A stretch of 64,000 bases of DNA from Sulfurospirillaceae bacterium (lineage in GTDB: Bacteria; Campylobacterota; Campylobacteria; Campylobacterales; Sulfurospirillaceae): contig JAWVXD010000001.1 of assembly GCA_033723415.1 (NCBI GenBank), positions 1 to 64,000 on the forward strand, in the 5' to 3' direction. Within the stretch, counting starts at the first letter, position 1, and every line of letters begins with the position of its first letter. A program made the position numbers. Shown piece after piece: positions 1 through 9,000 of this stretch.

Positions 1-3000
1 TATACAAAGATAAACCCCATTCTGAAGTAAGCTTTGGATCGTTGGAGTTTGCTTTATTTTCAATCAAGGTTGTTATTTTCATGTGCTGATTCTTCCTTTT
101 ATACTGCAGTCATTGAAGCCCAACGTTTGAGTTGAGAAATATTTGAGCCGCAGGGTAATTTATTTGCTCCTCTGGTTTGTTAAACTCATTGTTTACCTCT
201 ATGCCATAATTTAGAATATGACCAACCGTATAATTCAGTTATCAACATATAGCTTTTTTCGATTGAGACTTCTATATCATTGATTGCTTTTTTTAATTTT
301 TCATCATTTAAGTCGGAATTCATTCTGCTCCAATGAATAAACTCATGACGTTGTTTTACTAAATTTTCTAATTCTTCAAATAGTTTAATTTTTCTTCTTC
401 TGTAGGGTTTTAATAAAGTACTTTGAAAATTCAGGGGACAGTATACTAATTAATTCATTTTTTATCTTTTTTGGGTCGTCCTGCTTTTTTATTTTTATAA
501 TCAACACCTGTCAACAGCTTAATTTTATCATAAAAAGCATCATCTCCACAAGGTTTTCCCGTTCTTGTTTTTTCTTCTATATATTGTATCGGTGTGTTCT
601 CTTGTAAAAATTCTTTGTAGTCCACTATCGTATCTATAGGTACATACTCTGACAATAATTTATCTTCTTTTACTAGATTTACCCTATATAAGGCACTTGT
701 GTATTTGTAATCCCAAGGGTACTTGACCATCGAAGCTTTTACGGGATTTTGTTCTACATACTTGAGTGCATGTAAAAGATGAACTTCATCTAGCGGTGTC
801 GAATAAAACCGCTCTTGAAAAAGATGGCCTTTTACTTGTTGTTCAAAGTTTATTTTTCTTGTGTAAAGCCTGTGGGTTTCACCTATTGCCTTTGCGAGAG
901 ATTCTTGATCTTTGGGGATGGCTATGATATGCACATGATTTGTCATGAGACAATAAGCTATGATTTGTAGATCGTGCAATTTACATTGGGTAAATAGCAA
1001 CTCTTTGTAGTATTCATAATCCTCATGTTTAAAAAAGATATTCATAGAACGAACACCTCTTTGTGTAATATGATGCGGAATATGGGGGATTACTATTCTT
1101 TTTATTCTTGCCATTTGTGATTGTATTGTAATTTTACTTAATTAATTGATATACTGTCCCCAGATTACCCTTTCCCAGATTACCCTTTCGAAGGGTTTTT
1201 TGAAAAACAACTTGGTGTGTGTTCCTGCCATTTGTTGTGCGTAGCGAAGCGGAGCACGACAGATGGCAGAGATGGGCACGTTCGGTGCAAAGGTTTGTTA
1301 GTCTTCCAACCCTTCATTAAGATTATTATCAAAGGAGTTTGGTATTTCGACATCTCTACCATCAATAAGATGATCAAAGTTTTTTAACGCTTCAGCCAAA
1401 GATTTATTAGAAGATTTTAAAGATGTTCTGGCAGAAATAATTTCTGAAACGATCTCTCGTTGATATCCTTTATTTTCAGGAAAACAAATTTCAAGCTTTT
1501 CAAAATCAGAAGCTTGTGTTCTTCTCCTATTACTATGCCCTGTAGTAATAGCTCTAAATGCTCTTTTATAGTACCTACTTCTAAGTAAGCTAGATAAAAA
1601 ATCTGGATCTATTCGTTCGTCTATGACTTCATAGATTGGGAATTCTTTCGTTACGATTGCTCCATCAAATTCATCAGGGACTACTGATATGCAGCCTTTC
1701 CATAAATCTATGCTTGAAAAAACAACATCTCCAGCCTTTGCAGAAAACCATGTCGATGAACTATCTCCAAAATACATTCCTAACCACTCAGGGGGGTTAT
1801 TGCCTTTACCCGCTTCTCTTGGTCTTATTTCACCAGTTTGAGAAAGTGTCATAACTACTACTTCTTGTTCTGGGTTGATCTCAGGCTTGATAATATTTTC
1901 TCTTTTTTTCATAACTTTAGAAATTGGTAGTTTTATCCATCCTTCAGGTACATGGCTTTGCTCCTCTTTTTTAAAAAGAAAATATTTTGGATCCATTCTG
2001 TGACTCTCATGAGATTGCCACATATCGATAATATCGATGGCCATGCAGTCCGGAATGTCAGAACCACTATAGGAATTAGGATTATTTACAAATTTCGAGT
2101 ATTCACCATAAATCGTTTGTTCTTGGTCTTCAGATAGCCTTCCATCATCGACTTCCCTGTATAAATCATTTAAGTCTGAAATAATTCCTGTTGTTGTGTA
2201 GCCAACAAAATTTGCTTCTGCTAAAAAAACTTTATATCTTAGACTATTAAGTGCAGTCAAAATTGCACTAGATTCACTCTGTTCATTATCGATAGCATCA
2301 TTATAAATTCGATCAAATCTTACCTTTTCTTCTCTTGAGTATTTTTTGAAGAAAAGTACAGATGTTTTGTTCTGAGCACCTGATTTTCTAAAAGCATAAT
2401 CTGGCAAAGAAACAATCGCCTCTATTTTTCCATTCTTTGCCAAATAGCGTCTTGTTGCAGGACAGTTTGAAAGTTCACCATGATTATTAAATACTCCGTC
2501 GGGTAGTATCAATCCAAACTTTCCATTAGGTTCTAGTAGATCAACAGCCCTTTCCATAATTGCATGTTCCGAAGGAACACTGCTTCGACCTTCAGCAATA
2601 TCAAAATTATGGAGTGTATTTCCACCTAATAGATCATCATCACCATCAACCACTTCATCTCCAAAAGGGGGATTTCCTACGACACGCGTAAAGCGTTCTT
2701 GATATGGAGATAGTCTTGCTAAATTAAACCTTGTATCGAGGCAGCTTCGATCACCTTCTATGTTAGTATGCCCGTCATGATGTAGAAGCAAATTTATTTT
2801 ACAAATCCTAGCTAGAATTTCATGAATCTCGATACCGAATACTTTATGTAAAGCAAAATCATTTTTATATCTATCTAATTCCGAACGACCAGCATAATCT
2901 TTATCTAGGGAGTGCCATACTTGTAACAATACTTCGAGTAAGAAACCACCACTTCCCGCAGTAGGGTCAATTACGTAGTCAGTATGTTTTATGTCGAGCA

Positions 3001-6000: not shown

Positions 6001-9000
6001 GTGAACTTGTCATACTCAGAATCTTCTCCACCATAGTATAAAACTGATCTTTCTGCTGCTCTTTGTTCCCGAGTAGTCATTCGGTCTAACTCCGCATCTT
6101 TTTTTCTTTCCAACAATTGTTGAATCGTAATTTGTAATTCAACTCTACAAGACCGTAGCTTGACGATGGTGTCTTGAAATTCAGCACCCCATTCAACTTG
6201 TGCATTTAAATGATGTTCTTCTAATTCACTGAAAGCTTCTGCCATTACTTTCCATCGATTTTCATAGACATATACTGTGCCTTCATGCTTGTATTCTCTT
6301 TTTAAGTGTCCATGATAATCTGTCATATCTTCAGGATATTCATATTGATAAATTGCAGGATTCCGTACATGCTTAAAGGCTTCGCGAACCTTATAGACTG
6401 ATTTCAAAACATCTTTGGCTAATTGGTATTCGGCTTTACCTTTTAACTCTTTTTTCCATGCACTTAATCCCAAATAAGCAAATATTGCAGCAGAAACAGC
6501 CGACAGTCCTACAAGTGAGTCTTTTCCAGCTGCAATCCATGGACTAAGTTCTGATATTTCCAAATACTTTTCCTTTTAGGTGGTTAACGGGGGCGCGGGT
6601 GAGTGACTGCCGTTGGAAAATCTTTGGATTTTCCAATGGTTGATTGCTCCTCCCGCTTGTTATCTGGTGCGAAGCTCCGGATGACTAGCGGGTGTTCAGC
6701 CCGCGCCCCGTTATCTCGGATGCGTAGCGTCCGAGATAACGTTTAAAATGAGCAATAAATTAGCCGCCGGGTAATTTATTGGCTCCACTGATTTGTTAGT
6801 CATTTTATTCATTTGACCAAACCTCTTCTTTGTCCACAAACCAACCTTGGTTTTGTAGATGGGGAATAAAGTAGGTTTTTTCATGTATAGAGAGGCCATT
6901 TATTCGGAAGTATTCTAAGAGCTCGTCTAGATCTTTTTGAGAATAGATATTTATTAAAATATAGTTGCGGTTTTTAAACTGAATAAACAGATTTTTTTTC
7001 AAAAGACCAATAGATTCACCTGCTTTGTATAAGCGCAATATTTTATAGGGAAGTACAAATAGTAAGTACGTTAAAAAATAACGAAGGAAAATCGTTGCTT
7101 TTCCAATATGAACCCCGATTGAAGATTTACGGTAAAGTTGCCATGATGAAAGATGATGCCATCTGCCATATCTATCTTGTAATTCAGAAACTACACAGAA
7201 TGAAACCCGTTCTATGGAGTTTATTGGAAGACTCAGTTCAGTTTTAATGCCTTCCTTATCATAAAAATATTCCACATATTGGAATTTTTGATTGTAAAAT
7301 TTAAAAAAGCTGGGTTTTTTTTGAAAATGTTTTGGAAGTGTATATAAAAAGTAAAAAAACCAAAGGATTAAAGCACCTACGATAATAATCCGAAAAAATT
7401 CAAAACTAGAGTAATCAACTTCTTCAAATCTTCCAATTCTGTAATCATTCACCCATAGTATTATCACGACAAGAGAAATCAACATCACTAAACTAAGCTG
7501 AAAATAGGCTCCATAGTCTTTAATGATTATAGGGTTTTTGTCATAATCATGCTGCATATCTTGATTAGTTCCTTTCATTTGTATGACTAACGGGGCGCGG
7601 GTGAGTGACTGCCATTGGTAAACCTTTAGGTTTTCCGATGGCAGATTGCTCCTCCCGCTTGTTATCTGGTGCGAAGCTCCGGATGACTAGCGGGTGTTCA
7701 GCCCGAGCCGTTGTACGTTCCCGCTTTGCGGAAACGTACAATTATTTATTAATTCTAATATTATAATTAGATAATTCTTATATAGAGTATAAACATAATT
7801 TTATGTAGTATATAAACTACAAATATAAAGTATAGTATTACTTTTTAGCCTAGATAAACTATTATTATGTGAAGCCTTCAATCTTGAAGAAAAGGATAAA
7901 TCTTTTCAAGGAGCAGATCGGGCTGTTCTTCGATTACTAAATGTCCACTATCTAGGATAACATGAAATAATGAGTTTGGGATCATGTTGTGCAAAACTTT
8001 ACCTTGTTGTAGCGGTATCCATGTATCCTCGCGTCCCCAAAGGATCAAAACAGGCTTGGTGATCTGGGTGTATAAGGGTTGTACTTCATCCGTGTAACTT
8101 GAATTGGCCTGTGCGATTTGTCGGTAAAAAGCCGCTTTTCCGTCTGGTCCTGTCCACGGGAGGACAATCATATCCAGTATCGCATTATCTATGGGTTTGA
8201 AGGCGGCTGTATTGATGTATGCGCGAACAATAGCTTCATGAATATAATCCGGAACACCTGCAAAAGCAGCTTCGTGTGCGTTGACGTGCTGGAAAAAAGG
8301 CGAACCCCATGGGGAAACCGCAACCGGATCAATAAGTACGATTTTTTTAAATTCGCGTCCATTGATAAGGTGTGTCCGAAGAACCGTCGTACCTCCAAAA
8401 TCATGGCCAATTATGACTGGATTCTCAATCTCCCAGTGGTCAATAAGTCGATTCAATATCTGGTTCTGAATAGCTAGTGAAACATCACCGGGTGATTTAT
8501 CCGATTGGCCGTAACCGATTAGATCATAGTAGTACACTGTGAAGTTTTTGGATAAAGCTTGGATTAGATGTCGCAAGTTAAACGAAGACCAAGGTGTACC
8601 ATGGACAACGACTACAGGAGGGCCATCACCGAGCACTCCATATCTCACGGTACGTCCATCAAAATCGTAAGCCTCGGGTAGTTTCCATTCAGTCATCTGC
8701 CAAACTCCTCTCACATCACTAGTGATTAATGCCACTATTATAGTTATATAATACTTAATGGGCTATGAACAAAACTTACACTATATCAATCATGTTTCAT
8801 GTTGCATTTAGGTCAAATAGTCTATGACTTTGTGATAAAAAGACACAAAAAGTTTAGGCAATCTTTCGCAAAAAACTTTTCTTACGTTGATTTTCTAAAC
8901 AACTTCTTAACTTTCAAGAGTCCCATTTGCATGCCGCTGTATCTCATGATCTTTGCTAGGGCTTTCCACTCGGTCTTTTCGTAGCAGGGGGTTGGGCATT

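What a model noticed while it worked through the whole genome (the two positions that open the first line are those of the whole stretch)
1..7877. Three integrase-less attC cassette arrays that stockpile defence genes
Three stretches of same-strand genes are separated by 60-70-nt imperfect palindromes that start with a stop-codon-bearing TAAC box and end with AAACGTTA(T/G/A), each array beginning behind the same A+T-rich leader, and no integron integrase is left in the genome although most congeners have one. I read them as remnants of a sedentary chromosomal integron (CALIN arrays) whose cassettes are mostly anti-phage genes. New would be integron cassette arrays in Sulfurospirillaceae, a retron and an Argonaute-less 'Argonaute-associated' nuclease as cassettes, and about ten unknown cassettes as candidates for new defence genes.
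Evidence so far: Arrays: C1 1-7877 (g00001-g00008), C1 79758-86142 (g00082-g00088), C1 303731-309780 (g00304-g00309). Intergenic sequences in calls 104 and 107: attC-like sites after g00001, g00004, g00005, g00006, g00007, g00085, g00087, g00304, g00305, g00306, g00308; one folded as a hairpin with z -2.6/-4.4. The 130-nt leader upstream of g00008 recurs at 94% upstream of g00309 and at 70% upstream of g00088 and nowhere else. Cassette contents: type IIG restriction-methylase g00004; g00006 = PADLOC Aga_Nuclease 1.7e-92 (Pfam pP_pnuc_1/2; no PIWI row in pfam.tsv); retron RT-DUF3800 type VII-A1 g00082 (2.4e-81); YafQ/DinJ g00083/84; AbiV-like g00305; PDC-S73 nSTAND3 g00309 (5e-246). Unknown: g00005, g00007, g [...]
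(Added by a program. Inside this text positions count along the whole contig: contig position 1 is position 1 of the stretch shown here. "Call 12" and the like, gene names such as g00115 and contig names such as C1 are that model's own, and its searches are not shown. The text may have been shortened before it was handed on; [...] marks where a part breaks off. The agent that wrote the report below was given it as the finding of a first reader that could run no searches.)

Follow-up and report, generated by a model that had tools for sequence, protein, structure and literature searches.

The report
Beheaded integron arrays with a gene-less hairpin cassette
The region is the remains of an integron, a bacterial gene-capture device, that kept its docking site, promoter and captured genes (some of them anti-phage) but lost its recombinase, and its genes alternate with a small, very strongly folding, gene-less cassette that is shared by related sulfur bacteria.

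Summary
Window 1-7742 (minus strand) is an integron cassette array without an integrase. Five 62-66-nt attC sites match a model built only from relatives' sites (E 1e-11 to 4e-07). One such relative site lies 2 kb from a true intI. In 12 of 14 ORF cassettes across the arrays, the 5' end complements that cassette's own attC start (0 of 100,000 permutations). No intI scores above cut-off in the genome, against 8 of 13 congeners.

Four corrections apply:
- The 'leader' is the attI site plus cassette promoter. The array head is at 7.7 kb, so the contig start is its far end.
- A fourth head exists on contig 9.
- The retron and YafQ/RelB lie beyond a truncated attC, with no attC of their own. They are not shown to be cassettes.
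- Only 4 of about 15 cassettes hit defence families.

It sits at both ends exactly on the crossover. Its bottom strand folds about 10 kcal/mol better than its top strand. It is interleaved between ORF cassettes and comes first after attI in 7 of 10 readable intI-linked heads of relatives. It also occurs in Sulfurimonas. Overall this is a new member of a known kind (CALIN with defence cassettes), and B is the novel lead.

The parts
7743..7880 (-). Array head: homolog of the attI site and cassette promoter Pc (TATAAT at 7760-7765, AATAAATA at 7743-7750). The crossover G is replaced by A.
   Evidence: Aligns with the intI-attI spacers of 7 relatives; TATAAT and AATAAATA are invariant in 10 of 10 rows. 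Pattern scan.
7591..7742 (-). B element at the head (gene-less cassette with its own variant of the 5' hairpin)
   Evidence: blastn 97% to the reference copy. Bottom strand -45.7 against top -38.1 kcal/mol, z -7.9.
6740..7590 (-). Cassette with a 257-aa ORF (6805-7578, unknown, probably membrane) and attC 6740-6803
   Evidence: 5' end and own R'' complementary at 6 of 6 variable positions. attC E 1.2e-10. The same ORF lies in contigs of another metagenome run (X5 records 23-24).
6588..6739 (-). B element copy 3 (gene-less cassette)
   Evidence: bottom -53.1, top -43.7, z -11.9
5871..6587 (-). Cassette with a 210-aa ORF (5931-6563, unknown) and attC 5871-5938
   Evidence: R'/R'' 5 of 6; attC E 1.3e-11
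5720..5870 (-). B element copy 2 (reference copy)
   Evidence: bottom -52.6, top -43.3, z -10.8
4791..5719 (-). Cassette with the pP_pnuc_1/2 'Argonaute-associated' nuclease (ORF 4848-5717; relatives are 282 aa) and attC 4791-4855
   Evidence: PADLOC Aga_Nuclease 1.8e-92, Pfam 8.5e-40 and 8.3e-29. R'/R'' 5 of 6. About 99% identical copies in 3 other runs ending at 5716-5722. No Piwi in the genome.
4679..4790 (-). B element copy 1, short form (39 nt lost between two CATCC repeats)
4102..4678 (-). Cassette with a 153-aa ORF (4184-4645, unknown, hydrophobic) and attC 4102-4167
   Evidence: R'/R'' 5 of 6; attC E 6.7e-10
1211..4101 (-). Cassette with a 900-aa type IIG-like restriction-methylase (1298-4000) and a long 95-nt attC (1211-1305) that resembles the inner part of type II B elements
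   Evidence: N6_Mtase 1.6e-28, HSDR_N_2 9.1e-15, Eco57I 3.4e-09; PADLOC MTase and IIG rows. R'/R'' 5 of 6. Fold z -2.8.
434..1161 (-). REP-associated tyrosine transposase-like gene (455-1114) between inverted GGGGACAGTATA repeats (434-446, 1149-1161), inserted in the array
   Evidence: Y1_Tnp 9.1e-12. REP_Tyr_transpos 57 bits, below the cut-off of 80. Repeats read. The flanking cassette fails the R'/R'' test at 1 of 6.
124..187 (-). attC after a short, start-less ORF remnant
   Evidence: E 3.5e-07, but fold z 0.0
1..123 (-). Start of the next cassette; its ORF (from 82) runs off the contig, so the array is cut at its distal end
   Evidence: Read
7878..8735 (-). Alpha/beta hydrolase gene that abuts the head where intI would lie (not part of the integron)
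   Evidence: Abhydrolase_1 1.6e-26

Best explanation
Window 1-7880 is a beheaded chromosomal integron. It keeps the attI site and the cassette promoter Pc (7743-7765) but has no integrase gene. A minus-strand array follows of at least seven ORF cassettes, each ending in an attC site of the family used by the integrons of related Sulfurospirillaceae.

The cassettes were put in one by one by an IntI recombinase acting at G|TT. This is shown by the fact that each cassette's first bases complement the start of its own attC. With no intI in the genome, and with the crossover G of this head mutated, the array is now frozen. The genes are probably still read from Pc; this is inferred, because no RNA data exist. 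An incoming integrase could still lift cassettes out in trans (inferred).

The cargo is mixed. Two of the seven cassettes here are recognisable anti-phage or nuclease genes: a type IIG-like RM enzyme and an Argonaute-less pP_pnuc nuclease. The others are unknown.

Four of the junctions hold copies of 'B', a 112-152-nt gene-less cassette. B is almost nothing but recombination-site-like hairpins and folds best as bottom-strand single-stranded DNA. I read it as an IntI substrate that spreads on its own account (inferred).

The genome has three more such heads (C1 86.0 kb, C1 309.6 kb, C9 65.0 kb).
For: attC identity:
- A model from 7 relatives' sites hits 5 sites in the window and 14 in all, all on the minus strand and only in arrays. 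nhmmer genome-wide finds the same loci.
- A near-identical site lies 2.2 kb downstream of a 401-bit intI in G059:C14.

Cassette signature:
- 61 of 78 variable positions of 13 cassettes are complementary between the 5' end and the cassette's own R''. Non-self pairs average 2.6 of 6. 0 of 100,000 permutations reach the observed value.
- A 14th cassette matches 9 of 9.

Strand:
- The bottom strand is more stable in 16 of 19 own sites, with 2 ties and 1 top.

Head:
- TATAAT and AATAAATA are invariant in the alignment with 7 intI-linked spacers.
- The array 3 head keeps what reads as the first codons of intI.

No intI:
-.

Mobility:
- The nuclease cassette is about 99% identical in contigs of 3 other runs, with match ends at 5716-5722, next to the crossover at 5719/5720.
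- It is absent from 300 other genomes of the order.

B element:
- Both ends lie exactly at G|TT in varied contexts.
- 47 consensus pairs, 20 with compensatory changes; G.T on the bottom strand 89 cells against A.C 7. Type II: 77 pairs, 27 compensatory, 30 against 1.
Against: - IntegronFinder's attC model was not available.
- The unpaired spacers between the R and L boxes are 8-9 nt, longer than I recall for canonical attC sites, and extrahelical bases were not established.
- No recombination or expression data exist (no RNA run).
- The genome is in 17 contigs, so an intI in a gap cannot be excluded, although marker completeness is 100%.
- Two of 14 cassettes fail the R'/R'' test: the one holding the transposase, and the last one of array 3.
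- One site (124-187) has fold z 0.0.
- How four heads arose in one genome, each without intI, is unexplained. Own flanks share no synteny with the integron loci of the relatives that were fetched.
Confidence: 0.9

Rival explanations
1. The arrays are still served by an integrase: either an intI hidden in an assembly gap, or one that visits on a mobile element. They would then be live extensions of an integron rather than fossils.
For: The genome has 17 contigs. Half of all CALINs lie in genomes that do encode IntI (PMC4889954, passages). The heads of array 2 and of C9 keep an intact AATAAATAG|TT. B copies within the genome are 88-100% alike.
Against: No match over 53 bits in six-frame search of a genome that is 100% complete by markers. 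All four heads are assembled and none has intI beside it. The crossover is mutated in array 1 and deleted in array 3. The site where two congeners carry their integron is empty here.
Confidence: 0.1
2. The B element is a structured RNA (a 5' leader, riboswitch, processing site or small RNA of the cassette transcript), not a DNA-level recombination site.
For: It lies directly behind the putative Pc in many heads. It has stretches of conserved primary sequence (part of that conservation comes from the search pattern itself). The top strand also folds strongly, at -37 to -68 kcal/mol with DNA parameters.
Against: G.T pairs fall on the bottom strand, which is antisense to the cassette mRNA: 89 against 7 and 30 against 1 cells. 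The bottom strand is more stable in 10 of 10 and 17 of 17 elements by about 10 kcal/mol. No Rfam family at E<=1. Both ends lie exactly on the G|TT crossover, and the 5' end complements its own R'', as in a cassette.
Confidence: 0.12
3. The palindromes are REP/BIME-type extragenic repeats or terminators of ordinary operons, and the gene clusters are ordinary defence islands unrelated to integrons.
For: A REP-associated transposase-like gene and REP-like GGGGACAG motifs do lie in and beside the arrays. The short sites have a hairpin followed by a T-rich run.
Against: The REP-like motif is a different sequence with only 7 copies. The palindromes belong to the family found next to intI in relatives. 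The R'/R'' covariation across more than 500 nt of cargo needs a circular intermediate. The heads are homologous to attI regions.
Confidence: 0.02

Closest known systems
[quoted passage not shown] 2016, PMC4889954, passages read)
   Same: Two or more attC sites on one strand, no intI within reach, few cassettes, cargo mostly unknown. Loss of intI is one of the origins proposed in that paper.
   Different: Here the attI site and Pc are still at the head, and in array 3 a trace of the first intI codons remains, so the origin (loss of intI) can be read directly. The paper says Pc cannot drive a CALIN split off by rearrangement; here it may. The paper found intI pseudogenes near only 15 of 279 CALINs.
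Sedentary chromosomal integrons as stores of anti-phage systems (Darracq et al., bioRxiv 10.1101/2024.07.02.601686, passages read) and mobile integrons encoding phage defence (10.1101/2024.07.02.601719, listing and abstract only)
   Same: Single-gene, compact defence systems as cassettes. AbiV and type II/IV restriction are named there among the frequent ones.
   Different: Arrays here are short (3-7 cassettes), lack the integrase and lie in Campylobacterota. 'Retron' and 'Argonaute' do not occur in that text (0 occurrences). A pP_pnuc nuclease cassette and a 760-aa PDC-S73 STAND cassette are not mentioned in the passages I saw. Its supplements were not open to me.
Gene-less cassettes of Vibrionaceae superintegrons (Blanco et al. 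2024, PMC11014356, abstract and passages read)
   Same: Cassettes without an ORF that sit between ORF cassettes.
   Different: The Vibrio ones are heterogeneous and mostly act as sense promoters. B is one conserved family across at least two families of bacteria. It is made almost wholly of hairpins, with only about 20-30 nt outside its attC-like fold. No promoter-like site was found in it by a sigma-70 scan (weak test). It is the first element after attI in most intI-linked heads.
Long attC sites such as the Vibrio cholerae repeats (recalled, about 120-130 nt; a 128-bp V. cholerae attC is mentioned in PMC11014356)
   Same: A long, highly homogeneous recombination site with a branched variable part; bottom-strand folding.
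   Different: B has a second, internal R''-like box (…GATAAC) and a perfect 14-16-bp hairpin made of its own R' and R''. It travels without cargo.
Chromosomal integrons with inactivated intI, e.g. Xanthomonas (bioRxiv 10.1101/2025.06.18.660453, abstract only; details recalled)
   Same: Arrays persist after the integrase decays.
   Different: Here intI is deleted rather than mutated, and several heads per genome are affected across a whole family.

Membership tests
Integron cassette array (attC sites) | Inverse core sites R'' (…YAAC) and R' (GTT…) bounding an imperfect palindrome | tested here: met
   All 5 short sites and the long site in the window start at TAAC and end at (A/C)GTT(A/G).
Integron cassette array (attC sites) | Each cassette's 5' end (after G|TT) complements its own R'', the trace of a circular intermediate | tested here: met
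   61 of 78 positions; 0 of 100,000 permutations. 12 of 14 cassettes at 5 of 6 or better.
Integron cassette array (attC sites) | Folding as single-stranded DNA with the bottom strand favoured | tested here: met
   Bottom strand more stable in 16 of 19 own sites. Shuffle z from -2.0 to -11.9, except one site at 0.0.
Integron cassette array (attC sites) | Extrahelical bases and an unpaired central spacer of canonical size | tested here: inconclusive
   An extra base on the L'' side is seen in some sites (6733-6802, 5864-5937) but not all. Spacers are 8-9 nt. The canonical values are recalled, not computed.
Integron cassette array (attC sites) | Sites homologous to those beside a true intI | tested here: met
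   G059:C14 has intI (401.7 bits), attI, and the same site family 2.2 and 5.3 kb downstream. Model R1 was built from relatives only.
Integron cassette array (attC sites) | Score with IntegronFinder's attC covariance model | not testable with these tools
   The model is not in Rfam. Rfam gave no hit.
Complete integron | intI with the IntI-specific domain next to attI | tested here: not met
   TIGR02249 best 53.3 bits against a cut-off of 265, at unrelated loci. A hydrolase gene abuts the head.
Complete integron | attI site and Pc at the head of the array | tested here: met
   By homology only: alignment A1 with 7 intI-linked spacers. The crossover G is mutated in this array.
CALIN | At least 2 attC sites and no intI nearby | tested here: met
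Sedentary chromosomal integron (SCI) | Large array (more than 10-19 cassettes) fixed in the species | tested here: not met
   At most 7 ORF cassettes assembled, and the array is cut by the contig start. The congeners' integron locus is elsewhere and is empty here.
Gene-less integron cassette (for B) | Bounded by G|TT on both sides, own R'/R'' complementary, no ORF | tested here: met
   Ends coincide with the crossover behind attI or behind an attC, in front of varied cargo. 5' hairpin of 14-16 bp. 112-190 nt, with no conserved ORF (reading).
Gene-less integron cassette (for B) | Excision and insertion by IntI | not testable with these tools
   Needs a recombination assay.
Integron cassette (for the retron RT and YafQ/RelB of array 2) | An attC at the 3' end and a crossover at the 5' end | tested here: not met
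   No model hit between L018 2537 and 5496 at E<=1. The upstream attC is truncated. The segment is flanked by 86/126 direct repeats.
Short-pAgo defence system (for the pP_pnuc nuclease) | A PIWI-domain partner | tested here: not met
   PF02171: 0 matches at E<=1 in the genome, while the control genomes ring. The cassette holds one gene.

The most novel reading that the evidence does not exclude
B is not just an empty cassette. It would be a conserved working part, or a specialised parasite, of the integrons of sulfur-oxidising and sulfur-reducing Campylobacterota: a cargo-free 'super-attC'.

Its hyperstable bottom-strand hairpins include GCGAAGC- and GCGTAGC-type mini-hairpin loops. These would make it the preferred IntI substrate. 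It would therefore keep re-entering at attI, which fits its first position in 7 of 10 readable intI-linked heads against 13 of 60 other heads. It would also seed the array with ready-folding partner sites that raise the mobility of the neighbouring ORF cassettes.

Together with the many orphan attI-Pc heads (73 matches in 36 of 61 genomes, against 13 fetched heads with a full intI), this would describe an integron lifestyle not yet on record.
Probability: 0.35. Interest if true: 0.7.

Novelty: new member of a known kind. Interest (0 to 1): 0.5.

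Why it matters
Three points matter.

1. Origin of a CALIN. The retained attI/Pc head, and in array 3 a trace of intI codons, show the origin directly: the integrase was deleted. 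Integron surveys leave this question open, because attI is unknown for most integrons.

2. Integron anatomy in a poorly studied clade. The work gives the attI core, a likely Pc, two attC types and a gene-less cassette for Sulfurospirillaceae and Sulfurimonas. These can be searched for directly.

3. Candidate defence genes. The arrays list a dozen compact unknown genes in a context where defence genes are enriched. They also show an 'Argonaute-associated' nuclease travelling alone as a cassette, nearly identical in several environments. That suggests the nuclease works without an Argonaute.

If B proves to be a recombination helper or a selfish cassette, it adds a new player to integron dynamics.

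Tried and rejected
- Rfam at E<=1 over 1-9000: no hit.
- Sigma-70 promoter and terminator scan over 1-8000: fewer promoter-like sites than in shuffles (25 against 31.2), none in B, and the invariant TATAAT of the head was not called because it lacks a -35. The scan is not informative for this clade.
- Sequencing runs: no RNA holder listed, so expression could not be looked at.
- Synteny: own flanking genes against 10 relatives' loci gave no hit. The reverse search showed that the congeners' integron site maps to own C10, which carries no integron.
- NCBIfam and PHROGs on 14-16 unknown cassette proteins gave only unnamed phage families for three, and a YidD-like match on C9.
- Earlier findings of this scan: nothing on record.
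- Considered and dropped for B: a group IIC-attC intron remnant, a ribozyme, or a small ORF. It is too short for the first. It has no Rfam hit. A 29-codon frame seen in one relative is not kept in the others.
- My first attC regex was too loose (24 hits, 13 of them chance) and too strict for relatives. The counts rest on the models instead.
- Literature searches for integrons in Sulfurospirillum or Sulfurimonas gave no dedicated paper. Supplements of the large surveys were not read.

Full report
**What is there.** All sizeable ORFs of window 1-7578 lie on the minus strand. Read on that strand, from 7880 down to 1, the region has the following order:

- an A+T-rich head (7743-7880)
- a 152-nt G+C-rich structured element that I call B (7591-7742)
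- a 257-aa ORF and a 64-nt palindrome 'A' (6740-6803)
- B again (6588-6739)
- a 210-aa ORF and A (5871-5938)
- B (5720-5870)
- a 289-aa ORF and A (4791-4855)
- a shortened B (4679-4790)
- a 153-aa ORF and A (4102-4167)
- a 900-aa ORF and a longer, 95-nt palindrome (1211-1305)
- a transposase-like gene between inverted repeats (434-1161)
- an ORF remnant and A (124-187)
- the first 123 nt of another cassette, which runs off the contig

All 11 sites it listed were found again. It overlooked B.

**Are the palindromes attC sites?** Four independent lines say yes.

1. *Homology to sites beside a true integrase.* In relative G059:C14, a gene scoring 401.7 bits on the integron-integrase model (cut-off 265) is followed by an array. 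That array contains a site nearly identical to window 4784-4854, lying 2.2 kb from intI. A covariance model built from 7 sites of four relatives, with none from this genome, finds 14 minus-strand hits in 110,123 nt searched. Five are in the window (E 1.3e-11 to 3.5e-07), two in array 2, five in array 3, one on C9 and one on C11. Nothing else turns up in the other 57 kb of the window apart from a reverse-strand echo. An HMM of the same seven sites run over the whole 2.43-Mb genome hits only these loci (12 hits).

2. *The cassette signature.* Integron recombination cuts between G and TT of the R' box. The first bases of an integrated cassette once formed the R' of its own attC and should complement its R''. 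In 13 ORF cassettes of arrays 1-3, 61 of 78 variable positions do so. Non-self pairings average 2.6 of 6, and 0 of 100,000 permutations reach the observed total. A 14th cassette (234 aa, array 2) matches 9 of 9. The two failures are the cassette holding the transposase-like gene and the last cassette of array 3.

3. *Strand bias.* With DNA parameters the bottom strand is the more stable in 16 of 19 own sites, with 2 ties and 1 top. Shuffle z-scores run from -2.0 to -11.9, except for one site at 0.0.

4. *Mobility.* In contigs of four other metagenome runs from different studies, the A sites recur with unlike flanks. The nuclease cassette recurs at about 99% identity in three runs; one example is a 915-nt contig over 4814-5721 with 9 differences. 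Those matches end at 5716-5722, next to the crossover at 5719/5720.

IntegronFinder's own model was not available. Extrahelical bases are seen in only some sites. The unpaired spacers (8-9 nt) look long to me, though that comparison is recalled.

**The 'leader' is attI plus Pc.** Aligned with the intI-to-first-cassette spacers of seven relatives, the heads of arrays 1, 2 and 3 share an invariant TATAAT and, 9-13 nt further on, an invariant AATAAATA. In relatives the latter is followed by G|TT and the first cassette.

The state of the crossover differs by head. In array 1 the G is an A. In array 3 eleven bases at the crossover are gone. Upstream of the array 3 head, a stretch reads on the other strand as K-L-L-D-I. 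It matches the start of relatives' intI (…KKLLDVVRDK) and the intI remnant of congener G011, which tblastn aligned to residues 1-49.

The array heads sit where intI should be, and intI is gone. The best TIGR02249 match in the genome is 53.3 bits, at unrelated loci. In the genus, 8 of 13 genomes are over the cut-off, 3 more have contig-cut pieces and 2 have none. In the family, 19 of 61 are over the cut-off. The place where congeners G009 and G012 carry their integron corresponds to own C10 50.5-62.9 kb, which holds no integron.

**Orphan heads are a family trait.** The pattern TATAAT-N6-12-AATAAATAGTT occurs 73 times in 36 of 61 family genomes. The reversed-pattern control gives 4. In the stretches I fetched around relatives' heads, my slightly looser pattern found 73 heads. 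Of these, 13 have a full-length intI within 1.4 kb upstream, 3 have a partial one, and 57 have none at E<=1e-3. For four of the 57, less than 1.1 kb of upstream sequence was available. The complete genome G050 has six heads and one intI. Several complete genomes without any intI have one or two heads. How heads multiply or lose intI so regularly is unexplained.

**The B element.** B begins exactly at the G|TT behind an A site or behind attI. It ends exactly at a G|TT in front of the next cargo. Its first 14-16 bases pair perfectly with the bases that end in its own R'' (…AAC). This forms a hairpin with a 3-4-nt loop whose arms co-vary between lineages. One lineage has even lost GTT/AAC but kept the pairing. 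The rest is a long closing stem around two hairpins, one variable and one with a conserved loop. No ORF is conserved.

Two sequence types share this plan. Type I is found here, in other Sulfurospirillaceae and in Sulfurimonas. Type II is found in congeners and in genus g5, and the long attC at 1211-1305 resembles its inner part.

| Measure | Type I | Type II |
|---|---|---|
| Sequences compared | 20 distinct | 6 |
| Consensus pairs | 47 | 77 |
| Pairs with compensatory double changes | 20 | 27 |
| G.T cells on the bottom strand | 89 | 30 |
| A.C cells (G.T if the top strand folded) | 7 | 1 |

The bottom strand is more stable than the top in 10 of 10 relatives' elements (mean 9.9 kcal/mol). The same holds in 17 of 17 elements from public genomes (mean 10.3). 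So the selected fold is that of the bottom strand, as for attC sites, and not that of the cassette mRNA. On the bottom strand the loops read GCGAAGC or GCGTAGC. I recall these as unusually stable DNA mini-hairpins, and I did not check that recollection.

A 19-nt core of B occurs in 34 further public loci, after setting aside 2 chance matches out of 36. Most are Sulfurimonas, including a complete genome with four copies, plus Sulfurospirillum MAGs. By my pattern, 11 sit behind attI, 10 behind an attC-like end and 16 were unresolved or contig-cut; several of the unresolved sit behind variant attI by eye. The invariance of that core in these loci comes from the search itself.

B is the first element in 7 of 10 readable intI-linked heads. 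Three others are too short to read, and two of those begin like B. Among the other 60 heads it is first in 13. These counts are not independent, because the genomes are related.

Short forms exist: window 4679-4790 and a 62-nt mini-B in array 2. The long form looks like the mini form plus about 93 nt between CCCGC repeats.

I read B as a gene-less cassette that is itself an excellent integrase substrate. Whether it helps the platform or merely spreads in it cannot be told here.

| Cassette or gene | Hit |
|---|---|
| Type IIG-like RM | N6_Mtase 1.6e-28, HSDR_N_2, Eco57I, TRD-like C-terminus |
| Nuclease | Aga_Nuclease 1.8e-92 |
| STAND NTPase | PDC-S73 5.5e-246, with nSTAND3 |
| AbiV-like | HEPN_AbiV 1.8e-22 |
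| Retron RT | RT-DUF3800_VII-A1 2.4e-81 |
| Toxin-antitoxin pair | YafQ / RelB |

The retron and the toxin-antitoxin pair lie beyond an attC that is cut after TAACAAATCAGG. They have no attC of their own and are bracketed by 86/126-identical direct repeats carrying a REP-like motif. They look like a later insertion at the array's end, not like cassettes.

Of about 15 attC-bounded ORF cassettes in the four arrays, four hit defence families. The others hit nothing informative.

The nuclease has no PIWI partner anywhere in the genome. It is absent from 300 other genomes of the order. It belongs to a family of at least 215 clusters of about 282-aa stand-alone proteins. The named members are mostly from Gammaproteobacteria, and many sit on contigs of 1-3 kb.

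**What is known.**
- CALINs and their possible origins are described in PMC4889954 (passages read).
- Campylobacterota are listed among phyla with integrons in PMC8618304 (passages read).
- A published table lists CALIN or In0 elements for Sulfurimonas autotrophica and Sulfurovum (PMC10295459, table text).
- Defence systems in chromosomal integron cassettes are described in 10.1101/2024.07.02.601686 (passages read). That text does not contain the words retron or Argonaute.
- My three searches for a dedicated paper on integrons of Sulfurospirillum or Sulfurimonas found none. I did not read the supplements of the large surveys.

**Verdict.** The integron-remnant reading is supported and sharpened to beheaded integrons that keep attI and Pc. 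The claims on the retron, on 'mostly defence' and on clade novelty are reduced.

Noticed in passing
G000 contig C9 about 64,365-65,034 (locus L051 8365-9035), minus strand: A fourth beheaded head (TATAAT…AATAAATAG|TT), directly behind a housekeeping gene's stop. It is followed by a 182-aa ORF, a degenerate A-type attC (…AAACATTAT), then a YidD-like 136-aa ORF and a 63-aa ORF.
   Followed up: partly
G000 contig C11 72,854-72,921 (locus L020 7854-7924), minus strand: A lone, degenerate A-type attC (GTT changed to ATT) with no array, next to a REP-like motif.
   Followed up: no
window 434-1161: A REP-associated tyrosine-transposase-like gene (Y1_Tnp; NCBIfam 57 bits, under the cut-off of 80) between inverted GGGGACAGTATA repeats, sitting inside the array. 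The motif GGGGACAG-N1-3-TA(C/T) has only 7 copies in the genome. Five of them are in or beside arrays (window 434 and 1149, C1 82465, C9 61673 and 61760).
   Followed up: partly
G000 C1 79,590-79,720 and 82,380-82,500 (locus L018): Imperfect direct repeats (86 of 126) bracket the 2.8-kb segment with RelB/YafQ and the type VII-A1 retron. The segment looks like an insertion that cut an attC. The mover is unknown.
   Followed up: partly
Relatives: L044 1660-1760, L048 3040-3140, L047 9970-10040, L046 10985-11010: Palindromes of the type GGACA-N4-TGTCC, 2-3 copies, lie between intI and attI. They may be an operator for intI in bacteria that, as I recall, mostly lack LexA. Traces remain in own heads 2 and 3.
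   Followed up: no
G009:C26 (locus L061), just downstream of a head, same strand: The first gene behind this intI-less head is a 238-aa integrase-like ORF. It matches positions 240-314 of the integron-integrase model at 90.6 bits, and it is co-oriented with the cassettes.
   Followed up: no
G050:C1 1,685,990 and 1,691,889 (locus L052): Two heads with identical 200 nt upstream and 330 nt downstream lie 5.9 kb apart on one strand. This is a tandem duplication of a head with its first cassette.
   Followed up: no
G000 C1 about 84,003-84,072 and G012:C40 (locus L060): Mini forms of B (about 45-62 nt: the 5' hairpin plus a simple GC hairpin). The long form equals the mini form plus about 93 nt flanked by a CCCGC repeat, as if one site had been inserted into another.
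   Followed up: partly
loci L115, L127-L130, L135-L136, L146, L148: B elements on contigs binned as Gracilibacteria, Alteromonadaceae, Balneolaceae or Clostridiaceae MAGs. This is either mis-binning of short Campylobacterota contigs or spread of the cassette beyond the phylum.
   Followed up: no
window 4848-5717: Relatives of the nuclease are 282 aa, so the true start is probably about 7 codons inside the listed ORF.
   Followed up: no
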